From positions 217,496,001 to 217,560,000 of the forward strand of contig OZ024741.1 in the NCBI GenBank assembly GCA_964016885.1: a stretch of 64,000 bases of DNA, in the 5' to 3' direction. The notes beneath the pieces were generated by a model. The model made no database searches, was not told the origin of the DNA, and worked only from the letters and a program-made list of their open reading frames with translations. Below are positions 2,855 to 45,271 of this stretch, one piece after another. The stretch is from Eledone cirrhosa. Taxonomy: Eukaryota. Position 1 is the first letter of the stretch; each line of letters begins with the position of its first letter. The translations under genes and the position numbers were made by a program.

Positions 2855-2894
<40 letters not shown>

Positions 2895-4190: not shown

Positions 4191-4237
4191 GTATCTTGCT
4201 TCAATACTGTTGAGCGCTTTATACTATAACTGAAAAA

Positions 4238-6457: not shown

Positions 6458-6943
6458 TATATTTAGTTTGGTTTGTAATTATTTGGGAAACTAGCCGATA
6501 AATCTTTCGATTTCTTCTTTTTATTCTTCTTTTTATTTTAATTTTTATTTTTATTTTAAACATTCTTCATGAAAAATTAAACTACCCTAAAAGTTGATGC
6601 TCCAAATATATCGAATAAACGTTACACTAGATAAACTTCTATATTAAATATGAGAACATATGTAGACCTAACGGGCATCCTAAACTTTTGAAATGATTTC
6701 TGCTAGACGCAATCTGGTAAATAATTTTTAGCTTTATCTGTTTTCGACTCTGATGCTTATAACGAACTTGGCAATATATTGTCAATTAATTTTGAAGGGT
6801 TGATCTTTGTGGTCGATTTGCGTGGCATATTATGTTTTTATTTTTATTATTTTAATATTTTTTTAATAATATTTTTTAATATTTTTAATATTTTCATTGT
6901 TAATATGTAATATTTTTTAGTTTTCTATTTTATTTATTTGTTT

Positions 6944-12662: not shown

Positions 12663-13594
12663 GGCAATTGAAGAGAAAGATATAATTTCCCCTCAAGAAG
12701 GTCGAGATGTTGCTGCAGAGATTGGGGTCGCTTATTACGAAGTAAGCATTCTCACCGAGTTTGGAATTGAGGATGTTTTCTTAAATACAGTGCGAGCAGC
12801 TCTCAGTGACCGACGCAAGATGAAATTCTGGGACAGCCAGCTTCGAAAGCTGAAACCACCGATGATTCAACCTCCTATGGAACTTCCTCAACCTAGTTAT
12901 CCAAAAGTGACACTGCCATCAGTATCTTTATACAATGACCTCTGCTATCTACTGAGTGACCAAATCGAAGGAGACGTGGTTTTCGTAGCCAAAGAAAAAT
13001 GTATATATGCCCACAAAATTTGTTTAATGGTTACCAGTTCAGTATTTAAGGATCTTTTCCTAACAGACTTGAAAAGCCCTTCTTCAGAGCAGTCGAGTCA
13101 TGAAGTTTTCTCTGAAGATAGAGTGTCAGAAGATAGCGACAAAGACAGACTTATAGACAGTGACGGGATCTTACCAGAGAGCCCGGTGTCTGAGCATCTC
13201 GATTTTAATAACGTCATCGCTAACGAACAAAATGAATATGAGACAACAAAAACTTTCGTCCCCTCACACCCAGCATTTCACTCTGTCGAGATAAAACCTC
13301 CCAAGAGCCCGTTCCAGTCTAACCAATGCACTGTACAGTTAAACCCAGATATTACCCCACGGGCTTTCCAGTATATTCTAGAATACCTGTATACTGGAGT
13401 GGCCAAAGAACAGTTTGATATTTTCGATGAAGTCATCGTGGCTGCTGAGTTGCTACAACTCCCTGATCTTGTACTAACCATCAGGAACTTTCTCTCGAAA
13501 GAGGCTTACCTAAACCTAGAACTACGACGTAGATTCCATGTGGCACACTGTAGCAATCTGCAAGAACTGGCACTCAAGAGAGAAATAGCCACTG
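12663..13594 (+). CDS. RhoBTB: RhoBTB1/2-like exon: end of Rho GTPase domain, Pro-rich linker, split BTB1 with acidic insert
   Basis: EGRDVAAEIGVAYYEVS..FGIEDVFLNTVRAAL; KPPMIQPP; DVVF..IYAHKICL..SSVFKDLF ... AFQYILEYLYTG. Acceptor AG 12661-12662; donor GTAAGT at 13595, phase 1. Earlier exons lie before the window. Confidence 0.92.
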
Positions 13595-15856: not shown

Positions 15857-15975
15857 ATGTGACGTTCCAAGTGGATGATGGAATGGTCCGAGCCCACAAA
15901 CCTCTCTTAATGGCCCACTGTGAAGTGATGTATGCAATGTTTAGTGATGACTTTCTCGAGTCTTCCGCTAAAGTG
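15857..15975 (+). CDS. RhoBTB: RhoBTB exon: start of BTB2
   Basis: DVTFQVDDGMVRAHKPLLMAHCEVMYAMFSDDFLESSAKV; acceptor ATCCAG ending 15856; donor GTAACT at 15976; phases 1/0 fit the neighbouring exons. Confidence 0.92.
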
Positions 15976-17533: not shown

Positions 17534-17534
17534 A

Positions 17535-20500
17535 TCTATATATCTATATATATAAATCTGAGGATGTGTGTGTTACGGTTTGTAACGGATTCACGTCCAC
17601 AATTTCCAACGGATTCTATTCAAAGTCGGGACAATTATTGCTTTTGGTCAGGAAAAGGTCATGAAGCAAAACAATTTCAAATCCATCAACAATAAGGGCA
17701 AAATTCGATCATGATCATTCCCCCTCTCTATAATTTAACTGCTTTACTCTCTCTGTCACTCTTCACTCCCTATATGACAACACTGCAGAGAGAGAAACGA
17801 TGTTTATGATCAAATGGAGCGTTCCGTATATTCCCTCTCTCTATAATTTAACTGCTTTACTCTCTCTGTCGCTCTTCACTCCCTATATGACAACACTGCA
17901 GTGGAGCGTTCCGTATTGACATACGGCTTATCTGGGGCATTTTCAATCGGCTTATTGCAAATAACAACCCGCAAAATAACACTTCATATAACAGATTAAT
18001 GCTATAGACATATGAATTGGAATGTAACCCGTGAACGTTTTCCTAGGCAAAATTATTCGAACAAAATTATTTGCCAGAGTGTTCAGACTGAAACTGGCTA
18101 AACTCATGGCTTTAATCAAAAAGGGTCAGGTATTTGGGGCTGTAAAATGTGACATGTTTTCCGACAAATGACAAAAAAGAAGACTGTATATGCTCACATT
18201 TTGATTTGGTTAGCTGATAAAATCAATTCAAATGCCATAGACAGCTTCATTTCGGCTGAAATCCCTAACCTAGCAACTGACCACGAATTACATGACATCG
18301 TCAAAGCTAACATGGTCCGTGTGCGTCGGGTCCTAATGAGCATCACACGTGTCTGAAAGGGGGGGGGTCATGCAGTAAGGGATACCCAAAAACATTTGTT
18401 GACCAGACTGAGACTGGTGGCGACGGGTACCCCCTGTACAGGCGGAGACGGCCCGAGAACGGTGGCTTCGCCACAACAGTAAAGGGAGGTCAAATCGACA
18501 ATAGATGGGTTGTCCCTTACTGCCCGCTTCTCTTGAAGATGTTCAACACCCACATCAACGTTGAGTTTTGCATCTCCGTCAAGTCGATAAAATACATATG
18601 CAAATATGTAAATAAGGGCTCTGATGCCGCAATTTTCAAGCTGAAAATAGCAGGGACGAGGTCACAATACCTGGCGGGGCGGTACATCAGTAGCAATGAA
18701 GCTTTTTGGCGCCTATTTGGTTTACCCTTACACCTACGGCACCCCGCCATCGTACAGCTTGTGGTACATTTGGAAAATGGGGCAAAGGGTTTCCTTTACG
18801 GACCAAACCGCCACCAAGTTGGCCGCCGATCCGAAAGAGACCACTCTGACGGGTTTCCTCAAACTTTGCCAGTTCGATACATTTGCGCAAACAATTGTGT
18901 ACCCCCAGGTTCCATCCTACTTTATATGGCCGAAATCCACTTGGGTGCGGAGAAAGTCAGGTCAGGCTGTTGAAAGACATCCTTTGTGTAAAATTTGACA
19001 GCTGTCTTGGAAGGGTTTACACTGTGCCCCCCAAGTCAACATGAGTGCTTTCATCTCCGCCTTCTTCTGCATGAAGTTGTAGGCCCACAAAGTTTTCAGG
19101 ATCTCAAAACTGTTGATGGAGAAATATGTGATACGTACCGGGAAGCCTGCTTTAAGCGTGGTCTTTTGGAAGATGATTCGCAATGGGATTCCACTTTAGC
19201 AGAGGGTGCTTTGTTGAAATCACCTAAAGGTCTACGGGAACTCTTTGCCATTTTGCTTCAAAAGTGTGAATTGAGTGATCCCAAATCTTTATGGGTCAAG
19301 TACAGAGACTTCATGTCTGAGGACTTCCTGCGCCTGGCTCATCTGCAGTATCCTTCAGTGGAAGTTGGTTACAGTGACATTATCTACAACAGGGCACTCA
19401 TTGATATCGAGGATGCCCTCCTCGACATGGGTGGGAGTGAGTTGGCGACGTATGGCTTGCTGTCAACCGTCAGAGAGGAAGCTAACACGTTGGCCCCGGA
19501 TTTGTTGCGGGAAACAGAATATGACATCGAATCTCTTTCCCAATACTTAGAGGAAAATGAGCCCAAACTTCTGTCAGACCAAAGGTTGGCCTATTTAACT
19601 ATCATTGATGCGGTTTAAAATCAGACTGGTGGTATTTACTTTCTCGATGCTCCTGGGGCTACCGGAAAAACTTTTGTAACGAAATTGATACTTGCTAAGA
19701 TTCGTCACGAGAAAAAAATTGCGTTGGCTGTTGCATCGTCCGAGATCGCTGCTACTTTGCTGCCGGGAGGCAGGACAGCACAGTCAACCTTTAAACTCCC
19801 CTTGGATTTAGTAAAAACTGAGACACCAACATGCAATATCAGCAAGAGCTCACACGAAGCTCTGGTTCTCAAAAAATGTTGCCTCATTGTTTGGGATGAG
19901 TACACAATAGCACACAAGGGTGCCCTTGAGGCATTGTACAGGACCCTGAAAGACATTAGGGATTCTATGGTTCCTATGGGTGGCGTAACCCTTCTGCTAT
20001 CAGGGGATTTTTGACAAACGCTGCCTGTCATCCCCAAAGGGACAAGAGCTGATAAAGTGCGTGCCTGCCTTAAGTCGTCCATGTTGTGGCTCCAGGTAAA
20101 GAGTTTGTACCTGAGCACAAATATGCGTGCTCATTTGCATGGTGACATCATGTCTGCAGCATTTGCTCAGAAGATTTTAGCACTTGGTGAGGGCAAGGTC
20201 CCTGCAGATGACAAGGGCGGCATAGCAATCGACTCCCTGTGCAACATTGTGAGCAGCCCTTCTGACCTTTGGGAAGCAGTTTTTCCTAATGTCTCATCTA
20301 ACTTTAAAAACCTCGATTGGCTCAGCGAAAGAGCCATCCTTGCTCCGAAAAATACTATGGTTAATTTTATTAACGAGCAACTGATTGAGAAGATTTCCGG
20401 TAAAGAGCACATCTTCAAATCTATCGACCGGACGTCAGATAGATTAGTAATTAATGATATCGTTAATTATCCGGTTGAGTTATTAAATTCCCTTGAGCCC

Positions 20501-21255
20501 CCAGTGCCCCCACCTCACATTCTTAAGCTTAGGGTTGGCTGTCCCATTATGCTAATAAGGAACTTGCGTCCACCAAAGCAGTGCAACGGTACTCGCATGG
20601 TCGTCAAGTCACTGACGCCCGACTTGATTGAAGCCACCATTGCAACGAGGTGCGGGAGAAGGGAGAATGTTTTCATTCCAAGGATGAACCTTTTCCCCTC
20701 GGCGTCAGATATCCCGTTCGATTTCCGGCGATCCCAATTCCCGGTGAGACCATGTTTTGCCATGTCCATTAACAAGTCACAAGGGCAAACATTGTCGGTG
20801 GCGGGCATCCATTTGGGGGAGCCATGCTTCTCCCATGGCCAACTTTATGTTGCCTGTTCCCGCATAGGGAGCAGGAATGGACTTTTTGCTTACACTCCTC
20901 AAGGGATGACACGCAATATCGTCTACAAAGAGGTGCTATAGATGTTGGTGCAGGTGTTGGAGCTATGCCATCTGGAACACTATTTCCTGGTAGGGTATCC
21001 CAAGGCGGACAGATCTGACACCCAGCGGCATCAGGGCCACCATCTTGCAACTTTGGTCTACTAAATTCGCTATTGGAAGATTATTAACCCATCATTGATT
21101 GTCCAAAATGCTAATTGGTTCATAACTATTAATAACCGGTTCAACTGCTTTATGCACTTAATTGATAAGCTTATTCGCTTTCAAGCCACGTTTACCTGTA
21201 TGTAACTTTTCATAGCAAATGAACAAACCCGAGCAATGCTGGGCTAAACTGCTAG
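17535..21255 (+). mobile_element. Helitron, internally deleted and decayed
   Basis: 5' A|TCTATATA (TC at 17535 or 17543); 3' hairpin CCCGAGCAATGCTGGG 21228-21243 then CTAG|T at 21252-21256; Rep and helicase motifs inside. Confidence 0.9.
18060..20941 (+). pseudogene. Helitron RepHel pseudogene (HUH Rep + PIF1-like helicase), frameshifted with stops
   Basis: YAHILIWL, HINVEFC..KYICKYVNKG, RYISSNEAFWRLFG, DAPGATGKTF, VWDE, LLSGDF*Q, QFPVRPCFAMSINKSQGQTL, HGQLYVACSR, spread over several frames. Confidence 0.92.
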
Positions 21256-22321: not shown

Positions 22322-24108
22322 AAGGAGGCGTGGAAATGTCATTATGAGAGACTGATGAATGTGGAGAACGAATGGGAGAGAAAAATTACCCTCAGTAGAT
22401 CCGACAGAGGGACCAGCTATTGAGAATATAGGGCCCAAGAGGCGATTAAGGAAATGAAAAATGGTAAGGCTGCTGGACCATCGGGGATAGTTGCTGAGAT
22501 GCTGAAGGCATCAGGGGACGTAGGCACTAAACTGGTTGCACGCATCATCAATCAGGCTATATATGGTGGTGTTATACCCAAAGACTGGTGCAGCAGTATT
22601 CTCATAAATTGCTACAAAGGTAAAGGGGATGCTCTGGAGAGGAGCAATTATAGGGGTATAAAACTGATGGATCAGGTTATGAAAGTGACAGAAAGGATAT
22701 TAGCACAACTAATTAGAGAAAGGGTCAAACTAGATGAGATGCAGTTTGGTTTTGTGCCTGGGAAAAGTACAACAGATGCCCTCTTCTTGGTGAGACAATT
22801 ACAAGAGAGGTTCTTAGAGAAAAATAAGCCACTATACTTAGCCTTTGTTGACCTAGAGAAAGCCTTTGATAGGGTACCCCGATCTGTCATCTGGTGGTCC
22901 CTAAGGAAACTAGGTGTTGAGGAATGGCTTGTGAGGACAATGCAAACTTTGTTCAGAGGTGCTGTCAGTAAAGTCAGGGTAGGAATGGAGTTTAGTGAGG
23001 AATTCCAGATACAAGTAGGAGTACATCAAGGTTTGGTCCTCAGCCCGCTCTTGTTCATTATAGTCCTCCAAGCCATAACAGAGGAGTTTAAGACTGGCTG
23101 TCCATGGGACCTTCTGTATGCTGACGATCTGGTTCTTATAGCAGAATCAGTAGAGGAGCTAGAGAATAAATTCTGGTTATGGAAACAGCAGTTGGAAGCA
23201 AGAGGACTGAGAGTGAACCTAGCTAAGACAAAAGTGTTGATGAGTAGAAAAGAGGACAAAACTCTGATTCCGTCAGGGAAATGGCCATGTTCGATATGCA
23301 GAAAAGGAATTGGCATAAATTCTATAAAATGCACACAATGCAGATCCTGGGTACACAAGAGATGTAGCGGGATAGCAGGAAAACTAACAGGTAGGGAGAA
23401 ATACGTATGCAGTAGATGTACAGGGAAATTAGACAGTAGAAGTCGCATTGATAGACACATTTTTCAAATGCAGGCGGGTGCTATAGAAGTGGTGGATAGC
23501 TTCCGGTACCTAGGAGATCAGATTAGTATGGGAGGGGGGTGTTCCGAGGCCATAGTATCTAGAATAAGGACGGGTTGGAAGAAGTTTAGGGAGCTGCTTC
23601 CTCTGCTGACGAAGAAGGGTTTCTCCCTGCGTACGAAAGGCCGGTTATATGATGCCTGTGTGAGGAGCGCGATGCTGCATGGTAGTGAGACATGGGCAGC
23701 AACTGCAGAGGATATGCGATGGCTGGAGAGAAATGAGGCAAGCATGCTCCGTTGGATGTGCAATGTCAATGTGCGTGAACACAACCCAGAATGAATGTGT
23801 TGAGAGAGAAACTGTGTCTGAGAGGGATAGAATCTAGTGTGCGAGAGAGAAGACTGAGGTGGTATGGACATGTGATGCGCATGGAGGATGACCGATGGGT
23901 GAAGAAGTGCCAGGAAATGCCAGTTGAAGGGAGACGTGGTAGAGGTAGACCACGAAAAACTTGGGCAGAGGTGGTGAGAACAGACCTAAGATCGCTGAAG
24001 CTCACGGTGGAGATGACGAAGGACCGTGACAAGTGGAGAGATACTGTGCTGAATAAGACCCATCCTACCCTTGCAAGCAGGGAAAAGCGTACGTAAAATG
24101 ATGATGAT
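22322..24108 (+). mobile_element. 5'-truncated RTE-clade LINE (RT ORF 22454-23794, frameshift, remainder to 24096)
   Basis: KNGKAAGPSGI, NYRGIKL, QFGFVPGKST, AFVDLEKAFDRVP, GVHQG..LSPLLF, YADD, FRYLG, RLRWYGHVMR, RGRGRPRKTW; (TGA)n tail; TA flanks. Confidence 0.93.
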
Positions 24109-24907: not shown

Positions 24908-25147
24908 ATTCCATTCCCAGGTATCTGTAAAGATGCCTTCAAGGCTCTCCAGGAATACCTGTACACAGGTGAATCACCATATATGTCTGGTGTAGACTGC
25001 ATGAACTTAATTGAAGTGGCCAATCGCCTATGTCTACCTCGGCTTGTTGCTTTTGCTGAGCAACACCTGGTCCAGGAACTTGGCAGACTGGAAGATGGCA
25101 ACGTTAACATGATGGAAGATGTGTTGACTATTCTAGAAACTGCACAG
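24908..25147 (+). CDS. RhoBTB: RhoBTB exon: rest of BTB2
   Basis: IPFPGICKDAFKALQEYLYTG..LIEVANRLCLPRLVAFAEQ..ILETAQ; acceptor TTTCCAG 24901-24907; donor GTGTGT at 25148; 240 nt, phase 0/0. Confidence 0.93.
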
Positions 25148-25350: not shown

Positions 25351-25899
25351 AATTATTACCTGTCACCTCTCATTAAACTGCACAGGTGTTTTATGACACT
25401 TTTAACTTCTGTTACACCTGTCACCTCTCATTAAACTACCTAGATGTATCCCATCACCTCACATTAAACTATGCAGGTGTTACAACCCTGTCTTCTAATA
25501 TCTCTAGAAACTCCACAGGTGTGTAACACTATTTATTCCATATTACCTCTTACCTGACATTAAACTATACAGGTGTAACTGTCATATTACCATATGTATG
25601 TATATCATCTATACAATTGTATTATGTCATCTGTCTGTCATCTACCTCTCATCTACTTGTCATCTACCTATCATCTATTTCTCATCTGTCTCTCACCTGT
25701 CTGACATCTACCTGTCATCTATCTCTTATCTGTTATGTGTCTATATTTCCAGTTACACAATGCAGTACACCTAGCAAAATGGTGCCTTCACTATCTCTCA
25801 TCTACATGTCATCACTCCCTCATCTACCTCTCATTTACCTGTCAGCTACCTCTCACCTGTCTGTCATCTGTCTCTCATCTACCTGTTATCTGTCCCTCA

Positions 25900-27030
25900 T
25901 CTACCTGTTATCTGTCTCTCATCTACATGTAATCACCCTCTCACCTGTCTGTCATCTGTCTCTCATCTACATGTAATCACCCTCTCATCTACCTGTCATC
26001 TGTCTCTCATCTACATGTAATCACCCTCTCATCTACCTGTCATCTGTCTCTCATCTACATGTAATCACCCTCTCATCTACCTGTCATCTGTCTCTCATCT
26101 ACATGTAATCACCCTCTCATCTACCTGTCATCTGTCTCTCATCTACATGTAATCACCCTCTCATCTACCTGTCATCTGTCTCTCATCTACATGTAATCAC
26201 CCTCTCATCTACCTGTCATCTGTCTCTCATCTACATGTAATCACCCTCTCATCTACCTGTTATCTGTCTCTCATCTACATGTAATCACCCTCTCATCTAC
26301 CTGTTATCTGTCTCTCATCTACATGTAATCACCCTCTCATCTACCTGTCATCTGTCTCTCATCTACATGTAATCACCCTCTCATCTACCTGTCATCTGTC
26401 TCTCATCTACATGTAATCACCCTCTCATCTACCTGTCATCTGTCTCTCATCTACATGTAATCACCCTCTCATCTACCTGTCATCTGTCTCTCATCTACAT
26501 GTAATCACCCTCTCATCTACCTGTCATCTGTCTCTCATCTACATGTAATCACCCTCTCATCTACCTGTCATCTGTCTCTCATCTACATGTAATCACCCTC
26601 TCATCTACCTGTCATCTGTCTCTCATCTACATGTAATCACCCTCTCATCTACCTGTCATCTGTCTCTCATCTACATGTAATCACCCTCTCATCTACCTGT
26701 CATCTGTCTCTCATCTACATGTAATCACCCTCTCATCTACCTGTCATCTGTCTCTCATCTACATGTAATCACCCTCTCATCTACATGTCATCACACTCTC
26801 ATCTACATGTAATCACCCTCTCATCTACCTGTCATCTGTCTCTCATCTACATGTAATCACCCTCTCATCTACCTGTCATCACACTCTCATCTACATGTAA
26901 TCACCCTCTCATCTACCTGTCATCTGTCTCTCATCTACATGTAATCACCCTCTCATCTACCTGTCATCTGTCTCTCATCTACATGTAATCACCCTCTCAT
27001 CTACATGTCATCACACTCTCATCTACATGT
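25900..27030. repeat. 44-bp minisatellite (4 x 11-bp subunits), ~25 copies, with degenerate 11-bp flanks
   Basis: Unit TCATCTACATG-TAATCACCCTC-TCATCTACCTG-TCATCTGTCTC; period checked at 25963 and 26007. Confidence 0.95.
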
Positions 27031-27387
27031 CATCTAACTCTCACCTGTCTGTCATGTCTTTCATCTGTATGACATCTGTTATCTGTCTATATTTCCAGCT
27101 ACACAATGCAGTACAGCTAGCAAAGTGGTGCCTTCACTATCTCTCACCTGTCTCTCACCTGCCTGTCATCTGAATGTCATCTGTAGTCTGACATCTGTTA
27201 TCTGTCTATATTTCCAGCTACACATTCTCTAAAACTTGCAAAGTGGTGCCTTCAGTTTCTCTCATCTATCTTTCACCTGCTTCTCACCTACCTATCATCT
27301 ATCTGTCACCTGCCTTTCATCTGGATGTCATCTGCCTGTCATCTGTATGTCATCTGTATGACATCTGTTATCTGTCTATATTTCCAG

Positions 27388-27536
27388 CTACACAATGCTG
27401 TACAACTAGCAAAGTGGTGCCTTCACTATCTTTGTGTTCATTTTCTGGATATATTTCCTCAATATGTGAAACATTATAAAACCCTCAGTCTGGAGAACCA
27501 GTTGTTTATTGATAAACACAGATGGCCTCCTGAATG
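27388..27536 (+). CDS. RhoBTB: RhoBTB exon: C-terminal (BACK-like) region
   Basis: LHNAVQLAKWCLHYLCVHF..ENQLFIDKHRWPPEW; acceptor TTTCCAG 27381-27387; donor GTAAGT at 27537, phase 2. Confidence 0.93.
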
Positions 27537-27584
27537 GTAAGTTAGAAACATTCAACAACTTTCACTGGCTCTATCTCTGTCTCT

Positions 27585-27905
27585 TTGTGTAGGGGGTGGA
27601 TTTGTGTGGGGTGTTGTGTGGATGTGTATTTGTGTGGGGGTGTTGTGTATTTGTGTGGGTTTGTGTTTGTGTGGGGGTGTTTGTGTAGATGTGTTTGTAA
27701 GGGTTTGTGTGGGTGTGTTGTGTGTGTTTGTCTTTGTGGGTTTGTGTTTGTGTGTGTTTGCATGTGTATGTTTGTGTGTGTTTGCTTGTGTCTGTGTTTT
27801 TGTGGGGGTTTTGTGCTTGCTTATGTTTGTGTGTTTGCATCAGTTTACTTGTGTGTGTGCGTTTGCATGTATATGTTTGTGTGGGTGTGTGTGAGTGTAT
27901 GTGTG
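27585..27905. repeat. GT-rich low-complexity tract
   Basis: Seen directly. Confidence 0.9.
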
Positions 27906-27917
27906 ACAAATTAAGTG

Positions 27918-28550
27918 GGAGGGTTTAGCCCTAAATACTTAACCCTTGCTAAACAGTACTAGAAGTTTGCTTTAGCAGGATTTTAACTAAGCATTTGTCT
28001 AGCTCTGTACAGACTCTGCCAATCTGCAAGAGGACACATATAACCACGCCTTGGATAACCCTCATTGGCTATGATACCACCTCTGTGCTAAGCTATAGGG
28101 AAAGGTTTTTCTCTGAATGCTTAGCACTTGCTAAACAGTTCTAGAAGTTGGCTTAAGCAGGATTTGAACTACAAATACTGCTAAACATATATCTGATGCT
28201 CTACAGAGTTTTCCAATTCACTGCCAATCATAATTACTTTTCTATTGTTTTAGTTTTTTTGGCTTTTTCTTTCCCTAGTTATGTAAAAGAGATTGAATTA
28301 TTTCAAATAGTGCTAGATGTTGGCCTTAGTGGGATTTGAACTCAGAACATAAAGAGCCAGGCCAAATACTGCTAAGCATTTGTCTGGCACTCTACAAGCT
28401 CTGCTAATGGGCAAGGGGACAAATTTACGGGAAAGGTTTAGCCCTGAATTCTTAGCCCTTGCTAAATAGTGCTAGATAATGGCCTTGGTGGGATTTGAAC
28501 TCAGAACGTAAAGAGCGAGGGCAAATACTGCCTGATTCTCTACAGACCTT
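27918..28550. repeat. Degenerate tandem repeat, 3-4 copies of a SINE-containing unit
   Basis: TTGCTAAACAGT.CTAGA...GGATTTGAACT recurs near 27947, 28128, 28306 (partial) and 28459. Confidence 0.65.
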
Positions 28551-28568
28551 GTTAATAAATTATTGTCA

Positions 28569-28790
28569 ATCATCATCATCATCATCATCATCATTGTTTA
28601 ATGTCTATTTTCCATGCTAGCATGGGTTAGATGAGTTGTCCCATTACAGGAAAGATGGGTCGGGTGACCGTATCTCACTCATATAGGACTGTTTCTGGCT
28701 AGATTTCTATGGCTGGATGCCCTTCCTAATGCCAACCATATTTATAGTGTGGGCTGGGTGCTTTTTGTCGTGACACCTACACCACCACTT
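28569..28790 (-). mobile_element. SINE at the start of the satellite
   Basis: (CAT)n tail, CCATGCTAGCATGGGTT and GGCTGGATGCCCTTCCTAATGCCAACCA running without a break into the 48-bp units. Confidence 0.88.
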
Positions 28791-31700
28791 TACAGGGTGG
28801 GCTGGGTGCTTTTTGTCGTGACACCTACACCACCACTTTACAGTGTGGGCTGGGTGCTTTTTGTGTTTTGCCACCTACACGACCACTTTATAGAGTGGGC
28901 TGGGTGCTTTTTGTCATCGCACCTACACGACCACTTTACAGTGTAGACTGGGTGCTTTTTGTTGTGACTCCTACATGACGAATTTACAGTGTAGGCTGGG
29001 TGCTTTTTGTCTTGGCACCAACATGACCACTTTATAGTGTTGGCTGGGTGCTTTTTGTTGGGACACCTACATGACCACTTTACAATGTGGGCTGGGTGTT
29101 TTTTATCGTGGCACCTACACGACTGCTTTACAGTGAGGACTGGGTGCTTTTTGTTGTAACTCCTGCATGACTGCTTTACAGTGTGGGATGGGTGCTTTTT
29201 GCCACCTACACGACCATTTTACAGTGTGGGCTTGGTGCTTTTTGTCGTGCCACCTACACGACCATTTTACAGTGTGGGCTTGGAGCTTTTTGTTATGACA
29301 CCTACACGACCACTTTACAGTGTGGGCTGGGTGCTTTTTATCGTGGTGCCTACACGACCACTTTCCAGTGTTGGCTGGGTGCTTTTTCTCGTGGCACCTA
29401 CATGATCACTTTGCAGTGTGGGCTGGGTGCTTTTTGTTGGGACTCTGACATGACCACTTTGCAGTGTAGGCTGTGTGCTTTTTGTTGTGACACCTACGTG
29501 ACCACTTTACAGTGTAGGCTGAGAGCTTTTTGTCATGACACCTACACGACCACTTTACAGTGTGGGCTGACTGCTTTTTATTGTGGCGCCTACATGACCA
29601 CTTTCCAGTGTTGGCTGGGTGCTTCTTGTTGTGACTCCTGCATTACCACTTTACAGTGTAGGCTGGGTGCTTTTTGTTTGGGAGACCTACATGACCACTT
29701 TACAGTGTGGGCTAGGTGCTTTTTGTCGTGGCGCCTACACAACGACTTTACAGTGTGAGCTGGGTGCTTTTTGTTGGGACTCCTACATGACCACCTTACA
29801 GTGTTGGCTGGGTGCTTTTTGTCATGACACCAACACGACCATTTTATTGTGTGGGTTGTATGTTTTTTGTCATGAGACCAACACGACCACTTTACAGTGT
29901 GGGCTGTCTGCTTTTTGTTGTGACCTACGCGACCACTTTACAGTGTGGGCTGGGTGCTTTTTATCATGACACCTACACGACCATTTTACAGTGTTGGCTG
30001 AGTGCTTTTTAGTCATGTCACCAACATGACCACTTTATAGTGTGGGCTGGGTGCTTTTTGTTTGGACTCCTACATGACCACTGTACAGTGTGGGCTGGGT
30101 GCTTTTTGTCGTGACACCTACACAACAACTTTACAGTGTGGGCTGTGTGATTTTTGTTGTGACTCCTATATGACCACTTTGCAGTGTGGGCTGTGTACAT
30201 TTTTTTCGTGGCACCTACACAACCATTTTACAGTGTGGGCTGGCTGCTTTTTGTTTTTACTCCTGCACAACCACTTTACAGTGTGGGCTGGGTGCTTTCT
30301 GTTGGGAATCCTACATGACCACTTTACAGTGTTGGCTGGGTGCTTTTTGTCGTGACACCTACACAACAACTTTACAGTGTGGACTGTGTGCTTTTTGTTG
30401 TGACTCCTATATGACCACTTTGCAGTGTGGGCTGCGTACATTTTTTCGTGGCACATACACGAGCATTTTACAGTGTGGGCTGGCTGCTTTTTGTTGTGAC
30501 ACCTACATGACCACTTTACAGTGTGGGCTGGGGGCTTTTTCTTTAGGAGACCTACATGACCACTTGACAGTGTGGGCTAGGTGCTTTTTGTCGTGGCGCC
30601 TACACGACGACTTTACAGTGTGGGCTGGGTGCTTTTAGTTGTGACACCTACATGACCACTTTACAGTGTGGGCTGGGTGCTTTTGTTCATGTGACCAACA
30701 TGACGACTTTATAGTGTGAGCTGGGTGTTTTTTGTTCGGACTCCTACATGACCACTTTACAGTGTGGGCTGGGTGCTTTTTGTCTTCGCACCTACGCGAG
30801 CACTTTACAGTGTGGGCTGGGTACTTCTTGTTGTGACTCCTGCATTACCACTTTACAGTGTAGGCTGGGTGCTTTTTGTTTGTGAGACCTACATGACCAC
30901 TTTACAGTGTGTGCTAGGTGCTTTTTGTCGTGGCGCCTACACGACGACTTTACAGTGTGGGCTGGGTGCTTTTTGTTGGGACTCCTACATGACCACCTTA
31001 CAGTGTTGGCTGGGTGCTTTTTGTTGTAACTCCTACCTGATTAATTTATAGTCTTTCCTAGTGCCAACTACATTTACAGTGAGTGTTGGGTACTTTTTGT
31101 CATGACACCTACACTACCGCTTTACAGTGTGGACTAGGTGCTTTTTATTGTGGCACCTACACGAGCATTTTACGGTGTGGGCTGGGTGCTTTTTGTCGTG
31201 ACTCCTACATGACCACTTTACAGTGTGGGCTAGGTGCTTTTAGTTGTGACACCTACATGACCACTTTACAGTGTGGGCTGGGTGCTTTTTCTTTAAGAGA
31301 CCTACATGACCACTTGACAGTGTGGGCTAGGTGCTTTTTGTCGTGGCGCCTACTCGACGACTTTACAGTGTGGGCTGAGTGCTTTTTGTTGGGACTCCTA
31401 CATGACCACTTTACAGTGTTGGCTGGGTGCTTTTGGTCATGTGACCAACATGACGACTTTATAGTGTGAGCTGGGTGTTTTTTGTTCGGACTCCTACATG
31501 ACCACTTTACAGTGTGGGCTGGGTGCTTTTTTTTGTGACTCCTATATGACCACTTTGCAGTGTGGGTTGTGTACATTTTTTCGTGGTACCTAGACAACCA
31601 TTTTACAGTGTGGGCTGGCTGCTTTTTGTTTTTACTCCTGCACAACCACTTTACAGTGTGGGCTGGGTGCTTTCTGTTGGGACTCCTACATTACCACTTT

Positions 31701-34700
31701 ACAGTGGTGGCTGGGTGCTTTTTGTTGTGACACCTACACAACATCTTTACAGTGTGGTCTGTGTGCTTTTTGTTGTGACACCTACATGACCACTTTACAG
31801 TGTGTGCTGGGTACTTTTTGTTGTGACTCCTACATGACCAATTTACAGTGTCGGCTATGTGCTTTTTGTCGTGGCACCTACCTGACCACTTTCCAGTGTG
31901 GGCTAGGTGCTTTTTGTTTAGCAGACCAACATGACTTCTTGAAAGTGTGGGCTGGGTGCTTTTTGTTGGGACTCCCACATCACCACTTTACAGTGTGAGC
32001 TATGTTATTTTTGTCATGACACCTACAGGACAACTTTACAGTGTGGGCTGTATGCTTTTTGTCGTGCCAACTACATGACCATTTTACAGTGTGGGCTGCG
32101 TGCTTTTTATTGTCTCACCTACACGACCACTCTACAGTGTGGGCTGGGTGCTTTTTGTTGTGACTCCTACACGACCATTTTACAGTGTGGGCTGGGTGCT
32201 TTTTGTGGAGTGTCCTACACGACCACTTTATAGTGTGGGCTGAGTGCTTTTTGTTGTGACTGCTACATGACCACTTTACAGTGTGCGCTGGGTGCCTTTT
32301 GTCGTGACACCTACACGACAACTTTACAGTGTGGGCTGTGTGCTTTTTGTTGTGACGCCTACATAACCACTTTACAGGGTGGGCTGGATACTTTTTGTTG
32401 TGACTCCTACACGACCACTTTACAGTGTGGGCTGGGTACTTTTTTTCGTGGCACCTATACGACCATTTTACAGTGTGCGCTGCCTGCTTTTTGTTGGGAC
32501 TCCTACATGACCACTTAACAGTGTGGGTTGTGTGCTTTTTGTTGGGACTCCTACATGACAACTTTACAGTGTGGGCTGGGAGCTTTTTGTCGTGACACTT
32601 ACACGAAAACTTTACAGTGTGGGCTGGGTGATTTTTTGTTGTGACTCCTACATGACCACTTTGCAGTGTGGGCTGAGTACTTTTTCTCGTAGCACCTACA
32701 CGACCACTTTACAGTGTGGGCTGGGTACATTTTTTTCATGGTACCTACACGATTATTTTGCAGTGTGGGCTGGTTGCTTTTTGTTGTGACTCCTACACGA
32801 CCACTATACAGTGTGAGCTGGGTGCTTATTTTTGGACTCCTACATGAAAACTTTACAGTGTGGGCTGGGTGATTTTGTTGGACTCCTATATGACCACTTT
32901 GCAGTGTGGGCTGTGTACATTTTTTGGTGGCACCTACACGAGCATTTTACGGTGTGGGCTGGCTGCTTTTTGCTGTGACACCTACATGACCACTTTATAG
33001 TGTGGGCTGGGTGCTTTTTGTCATGGCGCCTACACGACGACTTTACAGTGTGGGCTGAGTGCTTTTTGTTGGGACTCCTACATGACCACTTTACAGTGTT
33101 GGCTGGGTGCTTTTTGTCGTGACACCTACACGACAACATTACAGTTTGGTCTGTGTGCTTTTTGTTGTGACGCCTACATAACCACTTTACAGGGTGGGCT
33201 GGGTACTTTTGGTTGTGACTCCTACACGACCACTTTACAGTGTGGGCTGGGTACTTTTTTTCGTGGCACCTATCCGACCATTTTACAGTGTGCGCTGCAT
33301 GCTTTTTGTTGGGACTCCTACATGACCACTTTACAGTGTTGGCTGGGTGCTTTTGGTCATGTGACCAACATGACGACTTTATAGTGTGAGCTGGGTGTTT
33401 TTTGTTCGGACTCCTACATGACCACTTTACAGTGTCGGCTGGGTGTTTTTTTTTTGTGACTCCTATATGACCACTTTGCAGTGTGGGTTGTGTACATTTT
33501 TTCGTCGTACCTAGACAACCATTTTACAGTGTGGGCTGGCTGCTTTTTGTTTTTACTCCTGCACAACCACTTTACAGTGTGGGCTGGGTGCTTTCTGTTG
33601 TGACACCTACATGACCACTTTACAGTGTGTGCTGGGTACTTTTTGTTGTGACTCCTACATGACCACTTTACAGTGTGGGCTAGGTGCTTTTTGTTTAGCA
33701 GACCAACATGACTACTTGAAAGTGTGGGCTGGGTGCTTTTTGTTGGGACTCCCACATCACCACTTTACAGTGTGAGCTATGTGCTTTTTGTCATGTCACC
33801 TACAGGACAACTTTACAGTGTGGGCTGTGTGCTTTTTGTTGTGACTCCTATATGACTACTTTGCAGTGTGGGCTGCGTACATTGTTTCGTGGCACCTACA
33901 CAAGCATTTTACAGTGTGGGCTGGCTGCTTTTTGTTGTGACACCTACACGACCACTTTACAGTGTGGGTTAGGTGCCTTTAGTTGTGGCACCTACACGAC
34001 CACTTTACAGTGTGGGCTGGGTGCTTTTTGTTGGGACTCCTACATGACCACTTTACAGTGTGGTCTATGGGCTTTTTGTTGTGACACCTACATAACCATT
34101 TTATTGTGTGGGCTGTGTGCTTTTTCTCATGACACCAACACAACCACTTTACAGTGTGGGCTGTGTGCTTTTTCTCGTGACACCTACACGACAACATTAC
34201 AGTTTGGTCTGTGTGCTTTTTGTTGTGACCCCTACATAACCACTTTACAGTGTGGGCTGGGTACTTTTTTTCATGGCACCTATATGACCATTTTACAGTG
34301 TGTGCTGCATGCTTTTTGTTGGGACTCCTACATGAGCACTTTACAGTGTTGGCTTGGTGCTTTTGGTCATGTGAGCAACATGACCACTTTATAGTGTGAG
34401 CTGGGTGCTTTTTGTTCGGACACCTACATGACCACTTTACAGTGTGGGCTAGGTGCTTTTAGTTGTGACTCCTATATGACCACTTTGCAGTGTGGGCTGT
34501 GTATATTTTTTCGTGGCACCTACACGAGCATTTTACAGTGTGGGCTGGGGCTGCTTTTTGTTGTGACACTTACACGACAATTTTACAGTGTGGGCTGGGT
34601 GCTTTTTGTTGTGACTCCTACATGACCAATTTATAGTGTGGGCTGGGTGATTTTTGTCATGACACCAATATGACCACTTTATAGTGTGGGCTGGGTGCTT

Positions 34701-37700
34701 TTTGTTGAGACTCCTACATCACCACTATACAATGTGTTGGCTGGGTGCTCTTTGTCGTCCCCCTACCTGATCACTTTACAGTTTGGGCTGGGTGCTTTTT
34801 GACGTGACTCCTGTATCACCACTTTACAGTGTAGGCTGGGTGCTTTTCGTTTAGCAGACCAACATAACTACTTTACAGTGTGGGCTGTGTGCTTTTTGTT
34901 GTAACACCTACATGACCACTTTATAGTGTGGGGCTGAGTGCTTTTTATCGTGGCACCTACACGGCCACTTTACAATGTGGGCTGGGTACATTTTTTCGTG
35001 GCACCTAGGTGCTTTTTGTCGTGGCGCCTACACGACGACTTTACAGTGTGGGCTGGGTGCTTTTTGATGGGACTCCTACATGTCCACTTTACAGTGTTGG
35101 CTGGGTGCTTTTTGTCGTGACATCTACACGACAACATTACAGTTTGGTCTGTGTGCTTTTTGTTGTGATGCCTATATGACCAAAGTATAGTGTGGGCTGG
35201 GTGCTTTTTGTCATGACACCAATACGACCACTTTATAGTGTGGGCTGGGTGATTTTTGTTGTGACACCTACATGACCACTTTATAGTGTGGACTGGGTGC
35301 TTTTGTTGGGACTCCTACATGAACACTTTACAGTGTGGGCTGGGTGATTTTTGTTGTGACACCTACATGACCACTTTACAGTGGGGCTGAGTGCTTTTTC
35401 TCATTGCACCAACACGACCACTTTACAGTGTGGGTTGGGTACATTCGTGGCATCTACACGATTATTTTACAGTGTGGGGTGGGTGCTTTTTGTTGTGACT
35501 CCTACACGACCACTTTACAGTGTGGGCTGGGTGCTTTTTGTTGTGACTCCTGGATGACCACTTTACAGTGTGGGCTGGGTGCTTTTTGTTGGACTCCTAC
35601 ATGACCACTTTACAGTATGGGCTGGTTGCTTTTTGTTGTTACTCGTACACTACCACTTTAGAGTGTGGGCCGGGTGCTTTTTGTTGGGACTCCCTCATGA
35701 CCACTTTACAGTGTTGGCTGGTCGCTTTTGGTCATGTCACCAACATGACCACTTTACAGTGTGGGATGGGTGCTTTTTGTTGTGACACCTACACGACAAC
35801 ATTACAGTTTGGTCTGTGTGCTTTTTGTTGTGACGCCTACATAACCACTTTACAGGGTGGGCTGGGTACTTTTGGTTGTGACTCCTACACGACCACTTTA
35901 CAGTGTGGGCTGGGTACTTTTTTTCGTGGCACCTATCCGACCATTTTACAGTGTGCGCTGCATGCTTTTTGTTGGGACTCCTACATGACCACTTTACAGT
36001 GTTGGCTGGGTGCTTTTGGTCATGTGACCAACATGACGACTTTATAGTGTGAGCTGGGTGTTTTTTGTTCGGACTCCTACATGACCACTTTACAGTGTCG
36101 GCTGGGTGTTTTTTTTTTGTGACTCCTATATGACCACTTTGCAGTGTGGGTTGTGTACATTTTTTCGTCGTACCTAGACAACCATTTTACAGTGTGGGCT
36201 GGCTGCTTTTTGTTTTTACTCCTGCACAACCACTTTACAGTGTGGGCTGGGTGCTTTCTGTTGTGACACCTACATGACCACTTTACAGTGTGTGCTGGGT
36301 ACTTTTTGTTGTGACTCCTACATGACCACTTTACAGTGTGGGCTAGGTGCTTTTTGTTTAGCAGACCAACATGACTACTTGAAAGTGTGGGCTGGGTGCT
36401 TTTTGTTGGGACTCCCACATCACCACTTTACAGTGTGAGCTATGTGCTTTTTGTCATGTCACCTACAGGACAACTTTACAGTGTGGGCTGTGTGCTTTTT
36501 GTTGTGACTCCTATATGACTACTTTGCAGTGTGGGCTGCGTACATTGTTTCGTGGCACCTACACAAGCATTTTACAGTGTGGGCTGGCTGCTTTTTGTTG
36601 TGACACCTACACGACCACTTTACAGTGTGGGTTAGGTGCCTTTAGTTGTGGCACCTACACGACCACTTTACAGTGTGGGCTGGGTGCTTTTTGTTGGGAC
36701 TCCTACATGACCACTTTACAGTGTGGTCTATGGGCTTTTTGTTGTGACACCTACATAACCATTTTATTGTGTGGGCTGTGTGCTTTTTCTCATGACACCA
36801 ACACAACCACTTTACAGTGTGGGCTGTGTGCTTTTTCTCGTGACACCTACACGACAACATTACAGTTTGGTCTGTGTGCTTTTTGTTGTGACCCCTACAT
36901 AACCACTTTACAGTGTGGGCTGGGTACTTTTTTTCATGGCACCTATATGACCATTTTACAGTGTGTGCTGCATGCTTTTTGTTGGGACTCCTACATGAGC
37001 ACTTTACAGTGTTGGCTTGGTGCTTTTGGTCATGTGAGCAACATGACCACTTTATAGTGTGAGCTGGGTGCTTTTTGTTCGGACACCTACATGACCACTT
37101 TACAGTGTGGGCTAGGTGCTTTTAGTTGTGACTCCTATATGACCACTTTGCAGTGTGGGCTGTGTATATTTTTTCGTGGCACCTACACGAGCATTTTACA
37201 GTGTGGGCTGGGGCTGCTTTTTGTTGTGACACTTACACGACAATTTTACAGTGTGGGCTGGGTGCTTTTTGTTGTGACTCCTACATGACCAATTTATAGT
37301 GTGGGCTGGGTGATTTTTGTCATGACACCAATATGACCACTTTATAGTGTGGGCTGGGTGCTTTTTGTTGAGACTCCTACATCACCACTATACAATGTGT
37401 TGGCTGGGTGCTCTTTGTCGTCCCCCTACCTGATCACTTTACAGTTTGGGCTGGGTGCTTTTTGACGTGACTCCTGTATCACCACTTTACAGTGTAGGCT
37501 GGGTGCTTTTCGTTTAGCAGACCAACATAACTACTTTACAGTGTGGGCTGTGTGCTTTTTGTTGTAACACCTACATGACCACTTTATAGTGTGGGGCTGA
37601 GTGCTTTTTATCGTGGCACCTACACGGCCACTTTACAATGTGGGCTGGGTACATTTTTTCGTGGCACCTAGGTGCTTTTTGTCGTGGCGCCTACACGACG

Positions 37701-43700: not shown

Positions 43701-45050
43701 TGTGGGGTGTGTGCTTTTTGTTGTGACTCCTACATAACCACTTTACAGCGTGGGCTGGGTGCTTTTTGTCGTCCCACCTACACGACCACTTTCCAGTGTG
43801 CTCTGGGTACATTTTTTCGTGGCACCTACACGACCATTTTACAGTGTGGGCTGGCTGCTTTTTGTTGTGACTCCTACACGACCACTTTACATTGTGGGCT
43901 GGGTGTTTTTGTTGTGACTCCTGCATGACCACTTTACAGTGTAGGCTGGGTGCTTTTTGTTTAGGAGACCTACATGACCACTTTGCAGTGTGGGCTCTGC
44001 TTTTTGTCATGACACCTACATGACTACTTTACAGTGTGGGCTGGGTGTTTTTTCTTGTGTCTCCTACACGACCACTTTACAGTATGAGCTAGGTGCTTTT
44101 AGTCGTGGTGCCTACATGACCAGTTCACAGTGTGGGCTGGGTACTTTTTGTTTGGATTCCTACATGACCACTTTACAGTGTTGGCCGGGTGCTTTTTGTT
44201 ATGACACCAACATGACCATTTTACAGTGTGGGCTGTGTGCTTTTTGTTATGTCACCAACATGACCATTTTACAGTTTGGGCTGGGTGGTTTTTGTTGTGA
44301 CTCCTACATGACCACTTTGGAGTGTGGGCTGTGTGCTTTTTGTTGTGACTGCTACATGACCACTTTACAGTGTGGGCGGGGTGCTTTTTGCTTGGACTCC
44401 TACATGACCACTTTACAGCGTGGGCTGGGTGCTTTTCATTGCGGCTCCTACACAACCACTTTACAGTGTGCTCTGGGTACATTTTTTCGTGGCACCTACA
44501 CGCCCATTTTACAGTGTGGGCTGGCTGCTTTTTGTTGTGACACCTACACGACCACTTTACAGTGTTGGCCGGGTGCTTTTTGTCATGCCACCAACATGAC
44601 CACTTTATAGTGTGGGCTGGGTGCTTTTTGTTCGGACTCCTACATGACCACTTTACAGTGTGGGCTGGGTGCTTTTTGTTGTGACTACTACATTACCACT
44701 TTACAGTGTTGGCCTGGTGCTTTTTTTTATGACTCCTACATGACCACTTTGGAGTGTGGGCTGTGTGCTTTTTGTGGTGACTACTACATGACCCCTTTAC
44801 AGTGTGGGCTGGGTGCTTTTCGTTGCGGCTCCTACACGACCATTTTACAGTGTGGGCTGCGTGCTTTTTGTTGTGACTACTACATTACCAATTTACAGTG
44901 TTGACTGGATGCTTTTTGTTGTGACTGCTACATGACCACTTTACAGTGTTGGCCGGGTACCTTTTGTCCTGGTACCTACACGACTACTTTACAGTGTGGG
45001 CTGGCTGCTTTTTGTTGTGACACCTACACAACCACTTTACAGTGTGGACT
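28736..45050. repeat. 48-bp satellite, ~340 units, with 2663-bp and ~7.4-kb higher-order duplications
   Basis: Consensus CACTTTACAGTGTGGGCTGGGTGCTTTTTGTTGTGACACCTACATGAC; identical ORF-track peptides recur at offsets 2663 and 7426-7522. Confidence 0.97.
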
Positions 45051-45093
45051 GCCAATAATAATTGATTTTCCATTGGTTTTGTTTTTTTCCTAG

Positions 45094-45271
45094 GTATGTA
45101 AAAGAGATGCAGTTATTTCAAAGTTTAATGAACAGTCCTTCAAAGAAGCAACAGCGTCAGAAACAACAACAGTTCAGCCGATGGGAACGTTGTACAAACA
45201 GCTGCCTATGTTTCAGTCGACGGCATAGTCACAGTAGCATGTCCGACCCCTTGGAATTACCTAATAGTTGA
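45094..45271 (+). CDS. RhoBTB: RhoBTB terminal coding exon
   Basis: Acceptor TTTTTTTCCTAG ending 45093; phase 2 completes HRWPPEW-YVKE, matching the RhoBTB HRWPPxWYxKE motif; stop TGA 45269-45271. The five exons sum to an in-frame length. Confidence 0.88.

What the first reader, a model, noticed from the sequence alone, without database searches (positions are those of the whole stretch)
28221..28339. Echo of the terminal exon acceptor 16.8 kb upstream: possible alternative last exon that skips the satellite
Seen: 28221-28307 (CTGCCAATCATAATT..TTCCCTAG|TTATGTAAAAGAGATTGAATTATTTCAAA) resembles 45049-45122 (CTGCCAATAATAATT..TTCCTAG|GTATGTAAAAGAGATGCAGTTATTTCAAA). Splicing 27536 to 28279 stays in frame and gives ..PPE-CYVKEIELFQIVLDVGLSGI-stop. 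The two copies bracket the SINE and the 16-kb satellite. This is the third exon boundary of the same gene to be duplicated, which suggests a recurring process (inference).
Basis: partly seen in the sequence, partly recalled or inferred. Interest (0 to 1): 0.72.

Follow-up and report, generated by a model that had tools for sequence, protein, structure and literature searches.

The report
Decayed duplicate splice acceptor, octopus RhoBTB
The last intron of an octopus RhoBTB gene holds a diverged second copy of the last exon's splice acceptor, likely left by a 355-base tandem duplication that a retroposon and its 16-kb satellite likely split apart later; it is likely an ignored decoy of a kind known from lancelets, and its use as an alternative last exon is untested.

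Summary
The echo is real: 28220-28307 matches 45048-45122 (E 2e-12), and a splice 27536>28279 would give PPE-CYVKEIELFQIVLDVGLSGI-stop. The gene is an octopod RhoBTB1/2 orthologue.

The echo is not an isolated 88-base copy. It ends a ~355-base tandem duplication: copy 1 is 27951-28307, copy 2 is 28305-28568 plus 45057-45122 (80% identical over 277 columns). The SINE and 48-bp satellite lie inside copy 2, between 12-base target-site-like repeats.

The echo looks old and unconstrained. It keeps the ancestral Glu that the real exon replaced. It lost a Trp invariant in 20 of 20 homologues, lost the real site's branch-point motif, and gained a competing upstream AG. In favour of use: a strong pyrimidine tract (18/20), an AATAAA 275 bases on (23% of windows have one), and a 16.8-kb head start. 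Use in RNA is untested.

Closest known: amphioxus 'mirages', duplicated intron-exon boundaries reported not to disturb splicing. Verdict: new member of a known kind, low interest; about 13% that it is a real minor last exon.

The parts
12663..13594 (+). RhoBTB1/2 coding exon (end of Rho domain, split BTB1)
   Evidence: 87% identical to O. bimaculoides RhoBTB2, E 1e-175; Pfam Ras and BTB; AG/GT ends
15857..15975 (+). RhoBTB coding exon (start of BTB2)
   Evidence: Pfam BTB E 6e-5; AG/GT ends
24908..25147 (+). RhoBTB coding exon (end of BTB2)
25374..25524 (+). two echoes of the donor at 25147 (GT at 25386 and 25519); use of either would stop the frame early
25741..27260 (+). three echoes of the acceptor at 27388 (exon starts copied at 25753, 27099, 27218), each with about 44 exon bases; all run into stops; a 44-bp satellite lies between them
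27388..27536 (+). penultimate exon, ends inside the Trp codon (TG|G); read-through into the intron gives PPEW-stop
   Evidence: 96% to P0002; sequence
27951..28307 (+). copy 1 of the tandem duplication: two degenerate SINE-fragment units, intron end, 29 exon bases
   Evidence: 223 of 277 columns identical to copy 2; score 226 against -34 +/- 12 in 300 shuffles; unit alignment
28039..28094 (-). 5' fragment of U4 snRNA (model positions 1-55), inserted in copy 1 only
   Evidence: Rfam RF00015, 34.5 bits, below the gathering score of 46, E 1e-6; 54-base gap against copy 2
28220..28307 (+). the echo: 59 intron bases, AG at 28277-28278, 29 exon-derived bases; a second AG at 28252-28253
28279..28339 (+). 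frame that a 27536>28279 splice would read: C-YVKEIELFQ (exon-derived) then IVLDVGLSGI-stop (from a SINE fragment of copy 2)
28305..28573 (+). left part of copy 2; starts at an AAA shared with the end of copy 1; ends in the left target-site-like 12-mer (28562-28573)
28554..28559 (+). AATAAA, 215 bases after the echo's stop and 1018 after the donor; absent from the matching place in copy 1
28569..28740 (-). 3' part of a SINE-like retroposon with a (GAT)n tail, sharing its 3' end with the LINE ending near 24108
   Evidence: further copies in the window at 72-78%; shared tail and internal 48-bp unit; very high contig depth
28741..45051 (.). 48-bp satellite, about 340 units, grown from the retroposon's internal repeat
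   Evidence: TRF; the same unit follows the same SINE body in 14 copies at 14753-15431
45048..45122 (+). right part of copy 2: right target-site-like 12-mer (45048-45059), branch-point-like TTGAT at -29, real AG 45092-45093, first 29 exon bases
45094..45271 (+). authentic last coding exon (58 codons after the split Trp, conserved FSRW..C..CLCFSRR motif, TGA at 45269-45271)
   Evidence: same C-terminus in O. bimaculoides, O. vulgaris, O. sinensis and Argonauta proteins

Best explanation
28220-28307 is a diverged copy of the RhoBTB last-exon acceptor, likely the fossil end of an old ~355-base tandem duplication across the intron-exon boundary (a 'mirage'), which the spliceosome likely skips so that the mRNA would use only the acceptor at 45094. 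Inferred order of events: (1) the intron ended in two SINE-fragment units followed by the acceptor; (2) slippage or unequal repair at an AAA microhomology (27951-27953 / 28305-28307) copied everything from the first unit to 29 bases inside the exon, which necessarily leaves the truncated copy upstream and the whole exon downstream; (3) a U4 snRNA fragment entered copy 1, and a (GAT)n-tailed SINE entered copy 2 about 35-45 bases before the real AG, duplicating a 12-base target; (4) the SINE's internal 48-bp repeat grew to 16.3 kb and pushed the copies 16.8 kb apart; (5) the upstream copy drifted. Shown: the sequence relationships. Inferred: mechanism, order, age (roughly 20-30 My on a borrowed clock) and non-use in splicing.
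For: Homology extends 270 bases upstream of the echo: 223 of 277 columns, score 226 against a shuffle maximum of -3.5. The site that is single in copy 1 (28220-28231) occurs on both sides of the insert, at 10/12 and 11/12 identity. The echo keeps Glu (GAA) where the real exon has Gln and 8 of 8 cephalopod-type homologues that reach this exon have Glu, so the copy likely predates that replacement. Of three changes assignable to the echo's 29 exon bases, two are replacements: Trp>Cys at a position that is Trp in 20 of 20 homologues holding the WPP motif (28 proteins examined, 8 end before it), and Met>Ile. Divergence is alike in intron part (7/46) and exon part (4/29). The yTnAy at -29 of the real acceptor is lost; the only such motif before the echo AG is at -59, and a new AG at 28252-28253 lies between them, whose use would give CFFGFFFP-stop. 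None of 11 GTs between 28279 and 28570 gives a frame-preserving internal exon. Two other boundaries carry five more echoes, all leading to early stops. Amphioxus mirages, many with intact AG/GT, are reported not to disturb splicing (PMC3087553 section 16; PMC3902484 passage).
Against: The echo has the strongest pyrimidine tract of the decoys: 18 of 20 against 16 of 20 for the real site, and only 4 YAG sites in 14,638 intron bases outside the 48-bp satellite reach 16. AG and frame are intact, and an AATAAA with a U-rich stretch behind it lies at a normal terminal-exon distance. The substitution counts are too small to prove neutrality. A real acceptor of this gene (27388) also lacks a yTnAy motif, so branch-point loss is weak evidence. 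The unit phylogeny is not clean: unit tails group U1 with U3 (31/37) as one duplication predicts, but cores group neighbours (U1-U2 32/36, U3-U4 35/38, against 25/36 to 31/38 across); later conversion between neighbours or more than one event is needed.
Confidence: 0.8

Rival explanations
1. The echo works as a minor proximal last exon: 27536 is spliced to 28279 and the RNA is cleaved after AATAAA 28554, giving a RhoBTB 39 residues shorter, without the basic/Gln-rich stretch and the CLCF motif, and avoiding transcription of the satellite.
For: In-frame splice with its own stop; pyrimidine tract 18/20; AATAAA 275 bases after the acceptor, new in copy 2; the site is transcribed 16.8 kb before the real one (sequence; the kinetic advantage is inference).
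Against: An AATAAA occurs in 157 of 678 (23%) 250-base windows outside the long satellites. The splice replaces a Trp invariant in 20 of 20 homologues. Half of the new tail is translated SINE remnant. A competing AG lies 25 bases upstream. +1 G is changed to T. The duplication likely predates the insert, so it cannot have arisen to skip it.
Confidence: 0.13
2. A proximal 3' end exists but needs no echo: the donor at 27536 is read through (TGG TAA, PPEW-stop) and the RNA is cleaved at AATAAA 28554, or the decoy AGs are used at noise level and the products decay.
For: Read-through stop directly in the sequence; the Lottia model P0010 ends at the same PPVW, probably by the same read-through (inference); same AATAAA.
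Against: The donor is near-consensus (8/9); the AATAAA is within chance; a poly(A) signal about 1 kb behind a donor is within the range that U1 snRNP tends to protect (recalled, not from a call).
Confidence: 0.05
3. The echo is or was a recursive splice site: the real acceptor reads TAG|GTATGT, so a fresh copy would regenerate a donor (ATG|GTATGT) and remove the long intron in two steps.
For: The regenerated junction matches the donor consensus at 7 of 9; ratchet points are juxtaposed acceptor and donor sites in long introns (PMC8605326 abstract). This may explain why the fresh duplicate was tolerated (inference).
Against: The echo now reads TAG|TTATGT, so no GT is regenerated; the intron was only about 1.1 kb before the insert.
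Confidence: 0.02
4. Assembly artefact, or a chance match of A+T-rich sequence.
For: The window is 55% tandem repeat, and the satellite holds a 2.66-kb exact internal duplicate.
Against: Shuffle controls; copies about 20% diverged; short-read contigs span 28044-28348 unchanged.
Confidence: 0.005

Closest known systems
Amphioxus 'mirages' (Adh3, troponin C, globins BflGb6/BflGb9, PGBD5; PMC3087553 section 16, PMC3902484 passage; the term is credited there to Canestro et al. 2002, of which I saw only the reference entry)
   Same: Tandem copies of an intron end plus exon start (or exon end plus intron start) lying on the intron side; splice dinucleotides often kept; both donors and acceptors affected; neighbouring units homogenised; 81-100% identity in BflGb6.
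   Different: Host is an octopod. The last-exon copy is a single ~355-base duplicate (reported units 10-160 bp), about 20% diverged, and no longer adjacent because 16.5 kb of SINE and satellite split the second copy. It concerns a terminal exon with an AATAAA nearby. Harmlessness was tested by RT-PCR in amphioxus and is untested here.
Intron gain by tandem duplication across an intron-exon boundary, potato RdRp gene (PMC4974935, passages)
   Same: Same geometry: the duplicate holds the 3' end of an intron and the 5' start of the next exon.
   Different: There a cryptic GTAAG donor turned the upstream exon piece into a small exon. Here none of 11 GTs gives a frame-preserving exon.
Internal tandem repeats at exon-intron boundaries of human genes in segmental duplications (PMC2812944, passages)
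   Same: Repeat turnover at exon-intron boundaries creates extra potential splice sites.
   Different: Those are recent ~30-bp units with transcript support in young paralogues; this is an old copy in a conserved gene.
Recursive splice sites / ratchet points (PMC8605326, abstract)
   Same: The real acceptor has the AG|GT form and the intron is long.
   Different: The echo has lost the GT.

Membership tests
mirage (duplicated intron-exon boundary) | duplicate spans an intron-exon boundary of the host gene | tested here: met
   59 intron plus 29 exon bases match the real acceptor
mirage (duplicated intron-exon boundary) | arose as a head-to-tail tandem duplication, extra copy on the intron side, authentic exon intact | tested here: met
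   copy 1 27951-28307 abuts copy 2 at 28305; 223/277 identical once the insert is left out; real exon intact
mirage (duplicated intron-exon boundary) | minisatellite-like array of short units | tested here: inconclusive
   last exon: two copies of ~355 bases (BflGb9 is also described as one duplicate); acceptor 27388 has three extra copies
mirage (duplicated intron-exon boundary) | mRNA uses only the authentic site | not testable with these tools
   no transcript of this organism could be examined
mirage (duplicated intron-exon boundary) | copy-number instability between alleles or cells | tested here: inconclusive
   one sample only; no difference or gap listed in 28044-28348
alternative last exon | YAG with pyrimidine tract | tested here: met
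   TAG, 18/20 pyrimidines
alternative last exon | branch point at about -18 to -40 with no AG before the acceptor | tested here: inconclusive
   nearest yTnAy at -59 and an AG at -25 between; one true acceptor of the gene also lacks the motif
alternative last exon | poly(A) signal downstream | tested here: inconclusive
   AATAAA at 28554, but 157 of 678 windows of 250 bases hold one
alternative last exon | junction reads and polyadenylated 3' ends | not testable with these tools
   no transcript of this organism could be examined
alternative last exon | coding constraint or conservation in relatives | tested here: inconclusive
   2 of 3 echo-side changes are replacements, one at an invariant Trp; no genomic DNA of a relative was reached
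recursive splice site | acceptor AG directly followed by a GT donor | tested here: not met
   echo reads TAG|TT
intron gain by boundary duplication (potato RdRp type) | donor in the duplicated exon piece that yields a frame-keeping small exon | tested here: not met
   0 of 11 GTs give a length divisible by 3
RhoBTB1/2 (host gene) | [quoted passage not shown] | tested here: met
   Pfam Ras end and BTB in three exons; all 15 hits carry PF00071 and PF00651; architecture as in PMC6744581 passages; the 5' exons were not located in the window

The most novel reading that the evidence does not exclude
A mirage has been recruited: after the SINE-borne satellite stretched the intron from about 1 kb to 17.6 kb, the old duplicate acceptor together with an AATAAA that arose beside the insertion site became a proximal last exon. 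It would yield a RhoBTB lacking its conserved C-terminal 39 residues and let the cell end transcription before the satellite. That would be a case of satellite growth switching a silent boundary duplicate into a coding alternative 3' end, in a lineage where such duplicates may be common (3 of 9 boundaries in this gene).
Probability: 0.13. Interest if true: 0.55.

Novelty: new member of a known kind. Interest (0 to 1): 0.22.

Why it matters
As a silent mirage it is ordinary: it extends a lancelet phenomenon to an octopod and gives a readable fossil record of one intron growing from about 0.7 kb to 17.6 kb by duplication, U4-fragment insertion, SINE insertion and satellite growth. It is also a natural test of acceptor choice, because a decoy with a better pyrimidine tract is transcribed 16.8 kb ahead of the true site. 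If the decoy were used with its AATAAA, it would show a route from repeat turnover to a new protein C-terminus.

Tried and rejected
No whole genome is held for this window, so no genome-wide count of boundary duplicates was possible. Search for sequencing runs with 27388-28570: no RNA holder listed; 3 runs of one sample and study, kind not on record; this says nothing on expression. Laying those runs on 27900-28740: 28538-28595 has no cover because the tool skipped the repeat there, so the AATAAA and the SINE junction were not checked; the 15 joints shown (162 more not shown) and the 18 loose ends shown (886 more not shown) all lie in SINE sequence and come from other loci; no allele lacking the duplication or the insert was seen among the rows shown; the donor at 27536 and the real acceptor lay outside the stretch. 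Protein searches with the penultimate exon: 3 clusters among longer proteins, none among proteins of 26-86 residues; none of the 28 homologues examined ends in an echo-like tail, but none is from this species. Metagenome scan with the last exon: 1 locus, L001, a spurious match of a few residues, rejected. Earlier notes of this scan by place and by protein: none; by words: none, eight partial matches. Rejected: that echo and real acceptor are an 88-base target-site duplication of the SINE (homology runs 270 bases further upstream); that the echo is an internal micro-exon; that it is a present-day ratchet point. Rfam on 27380-28900 found only the U4 fragment. Literature searches for a cephalopod report found none; the library lacks most subscription papers, so this does not show that none exists. 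Supplementary files were not read; the mirage alignments in the supplements of PMC3087553 could refine the comparison. No structure was predicted.

Full report
Observation. 28220-28307 aligns to 45048-45122 with 65 identities in 75 paired columns and one 13-base gap; the score is 71 against 18 +/- 2 (maximum 30) in 500 shuffles, E 2e-12 within the window. The coordinates of donor (27536|GT), echo AG (28277-28278) and real AG (45092-45093) are right, and the two splices translate as stated. In 3 of 3 public runs, all of one sample, a 305-base contig carries 28044-28348 without a difference, at depth 7-11 like its neighbours. The runs may be the source of the assembly, so they exclude an assembly slip but are not independent.

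Host gene. Five coding exons on the + strand (12663-13594, 15857-15975, 24908-25147, 27388-27536, 45094-45271) encode the C-terminal part of a RhoBTB1/2 protein, about 540 residues (the first two boundaries were corrected by one base). The large exon is 87% identical to Octopus bimaculoides and 79% to Argonauta, so the organism is an octopod (inference). The exon at 45094 gives the C-terminus found in O. bimaculoides, O. vulgaris, O. sinensis and Argonauta proteins. RhoBTB1/2 have a conserved C-terminal region with a putative nuclear localisation signal and no CAAX box (PMC6744581, passages).

What the echo is part of. The 660 bases from 27905 to 28570 are four degenerate units of a SINE fragment, U1-U4 ('SINE' rests on repeated copies in the window, very high contig depth, and a recalled tRNA B-box motif). 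U1+U2+echo (27951-28307) aligns end to end with U3+U4+real acceptor (28305-28568 plus 45057-45122): 223 of 277 columns, score 226 against -34 +/- 12 in 300 shuffles (of six cut points tried, identity ranged 80.3-80.6%). The copies meet at three shared bases, AAA. The echo is therefore the tail of a ~355-base tandem duplication reaching 29 bases into the exon. A duplication across an acceptor always leaves the truncated copy upstream, which is where this one and the three echoes of acceptor 27388 lie; the two donor echoes lie downstream of their donor, as the same logic predicts. One result does not fit a single clean event: unit tails group U1 with U3 (31/37), but cores group neighbours (U1-U2 32/36, U3-U4 35/38, cross pairs 25/36 to 31/38). 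Conversion between neighbouring units or a further event is needed; homogenisation of neighbours is described for amphioxus mirages.

The insert. A 12-base site that is single in copy 1 (28220-28231) occurs on both sides of the SINE and satellite in copy 2 (28562-28573, 10/12; 45048-45059, 11/12), as a target-site duplication would (inference; the right-hand ACTG could also belong to the satellite unit). The retroposon lies on the minus strand, ends in (GAT)n and shares its 3' end with a reverse-transcriptase element ending near 24108. The same body carries 14 units of the 48-bp repeat at 14753-15431 and about 340 here. Copy 1 took up a separate 54-base insert, positions 1-55 of the U4 snRNA model on the minus strand (34.5 bits, below the gathering score of 46; E 1e-6). 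The intron is 17,557 bases, would be 1,069 without the insert and about 715 without the duplicate as well. So the copies do not frame the satellite by design; the satellite's carrier likely landed inside the second copy after the duplication.

Age and constraint. The copies differ at 54 of 277 columns overall, 7 of 46 in the echo's intron part and 4 of 29 in its exon part. With the scale used for Octopus repeats (Jukes-Cantor 0.09 for 25 My; PMC13282606, passages) this gives 21-31 My, a rough figure on a borrowed clock. The echo reads ATT GAA where the real exon reads ATG CAG; 8 of 8 cephalopod-type homologues that reach this exon have M-E, so the echo keeps the ancestral Glu and likely predates the Glu>Gln change (the Gln codon itself was not checked against reads). 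Echo-side changes are G>T at +1 (Trp>Cys; Trp in 20 of 20 homologues with the WPP motif, of 28 examined), Met>Ile and probably one silent change. This fits drift, but the numbers are too small to prove it.

Could it be spliced? For: TAG with 18 of 20 pyrimidines, against 13-19 for the five true acceptors (16 for the real last one); only 4 YAG sites in 14,638 intron bases outside the 48-bp satellite reach 16 without an inner AG, and the echo is the best. An AATAAA lies 275 bases after the AG, with a U-rich stretch behind it, and is missing from the matching place in copy 1. The site is transcribed 16.8 kb before the real one. Against: AATAAA occurs in 157 of 678 windows of 250 bases; the TTGAT at -29 of the real site is altered, the nearest yTnAy is at -59, and a new AG at 28252-28253 lies between, with that motif at -34 from it, so scanning would favour it and give CFFGFFFP-stop (acceptor 27388 has no such motif either, so this test is weak). 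None of 11 GTs up to 28570 would make a frame-keeping internal exon. The real site reads TAG|GTATGT, so a fresh copy could have acted as a ratchet point (definition from PMC8605326, abstract), but the echo's G>T removes that. Whether any transcript uses the echo was not tested.

Recurrence. Three of nine boundaries have an echo. Among 200 random non-exonic positions outside tandem arrays, 6 have a same-strand echo within 1 kb and 37 within 20 kb; the boundaries give 2 of 9 and 3 of 9 (p 0.04 and 0.38; p 0.004 if the last-exon echo is counted at its inferred original distance). Positions inside tandem arrays, 55% of the window, were left out of the baseline, which lowers it. Two of the three boundaries flank one intron, and the gene was chosen because of the echoes. 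This is a hint, not a result.

Comparison with what is known. Tandem duplicates of intron-exon boundaries are described in amphioxus as 'mirages' (Adh3, troponin C, globins, PGBD5); many keep AG/GT and are reported not to give aberrant mRNA (PMC3087553, section 16 read whole plus passages; PMC3902484, one passage). The same geometry created an intron in a potato RdRp gene when a cryptic donor was available (PMC4974935, passages), and variable repeats at boundaries change splicing in young human paralogues (PMC2812944, passages). Three searches found no cephalopod report in the held library. Earlier AI notes of this scan file similar arrays in worms and sea urchins under mirages; I reached the term before seeing them and did not check them.

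Verdict. Observation confirmed; interpretation partly supported. Best reading (0.8): an old, split, likely silent mirage. Minor proximal last exon: 0.13. New member of a known kind; interest 0.22.

Noticed in passing
window 28039-28094 (-): 5' fragment of U4 snRNA (model positions 1-55, through the 5' stem-loop) inserted in copy 1, with TATA at both ends; contig depth 430-580 against about 10 for single-copy sequence suggests further U4-like copies in the genome.
   Followed up: partly
window 25741-27431: Three echoes of the acceptor at 27388. The one at 27099 encodes LHNAVQLAKWCLHYL, identical to the real exon, with only silent differences; likely the real exon drifted at silent sites or the copy is young. 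All three run into stops.
   Followed up: partly
window 27534-27539: Read-through of the donor gives TGG TAA, so an unspliced RNA would end the protein at PPEW; the Lottia gene model P0010 ends at the same place.
   Followed up: no
window 45092-45099: The authentic last acceptor reads AG|GTATGT, a ratchet-point-like junction that regenerates a 7/9 donor after splicing.
   Followed up: partly
window 33119-38636: Exact 2,663-base tandem duplicate inside the 48-bp satellite, with further exact blocks at offsets of 2.2-7.7 kb: recent higher-order growth or assembly error.
   Followed up: no
window 22424-24108 (+) and 28569-28740 (-): A reverse-transcriptase element (Pfam RVT_1, E 5e-30, plus a PHD finger) in the intron shares its 3' end and GATGAT tail with the SINE that carries the satellite: a likely LINE-SINE pair; the clade name RTE is recalled.
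   Followed up: partly
window 17500-20941 (+): Broken element with a PIF1-like helicase (Pfam E 4e-10 and 1e-13) in the same intron, flanked by (TA)n; likely a Helitron (recalled label).
   Followed up: no
window 2620-8000: Element with a 747-codon open frame (4214-6457, no Pfam hit at 0.001), with direct and inverted repeats of its ends visible in the sequence and lying between two long (TA)n arrays; looks Penelope-like (recalled label).
   Followed up: no
P0020-P0025, P0027, P0029: Eight homologous proteins end soon after the large exon, seven visibly by read-through of the donor that follows ...IATG/IGTG; probably gene-calling on unspliced contigs, though O. vulgaris model P0020 is among the eight.
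   Followed up: no
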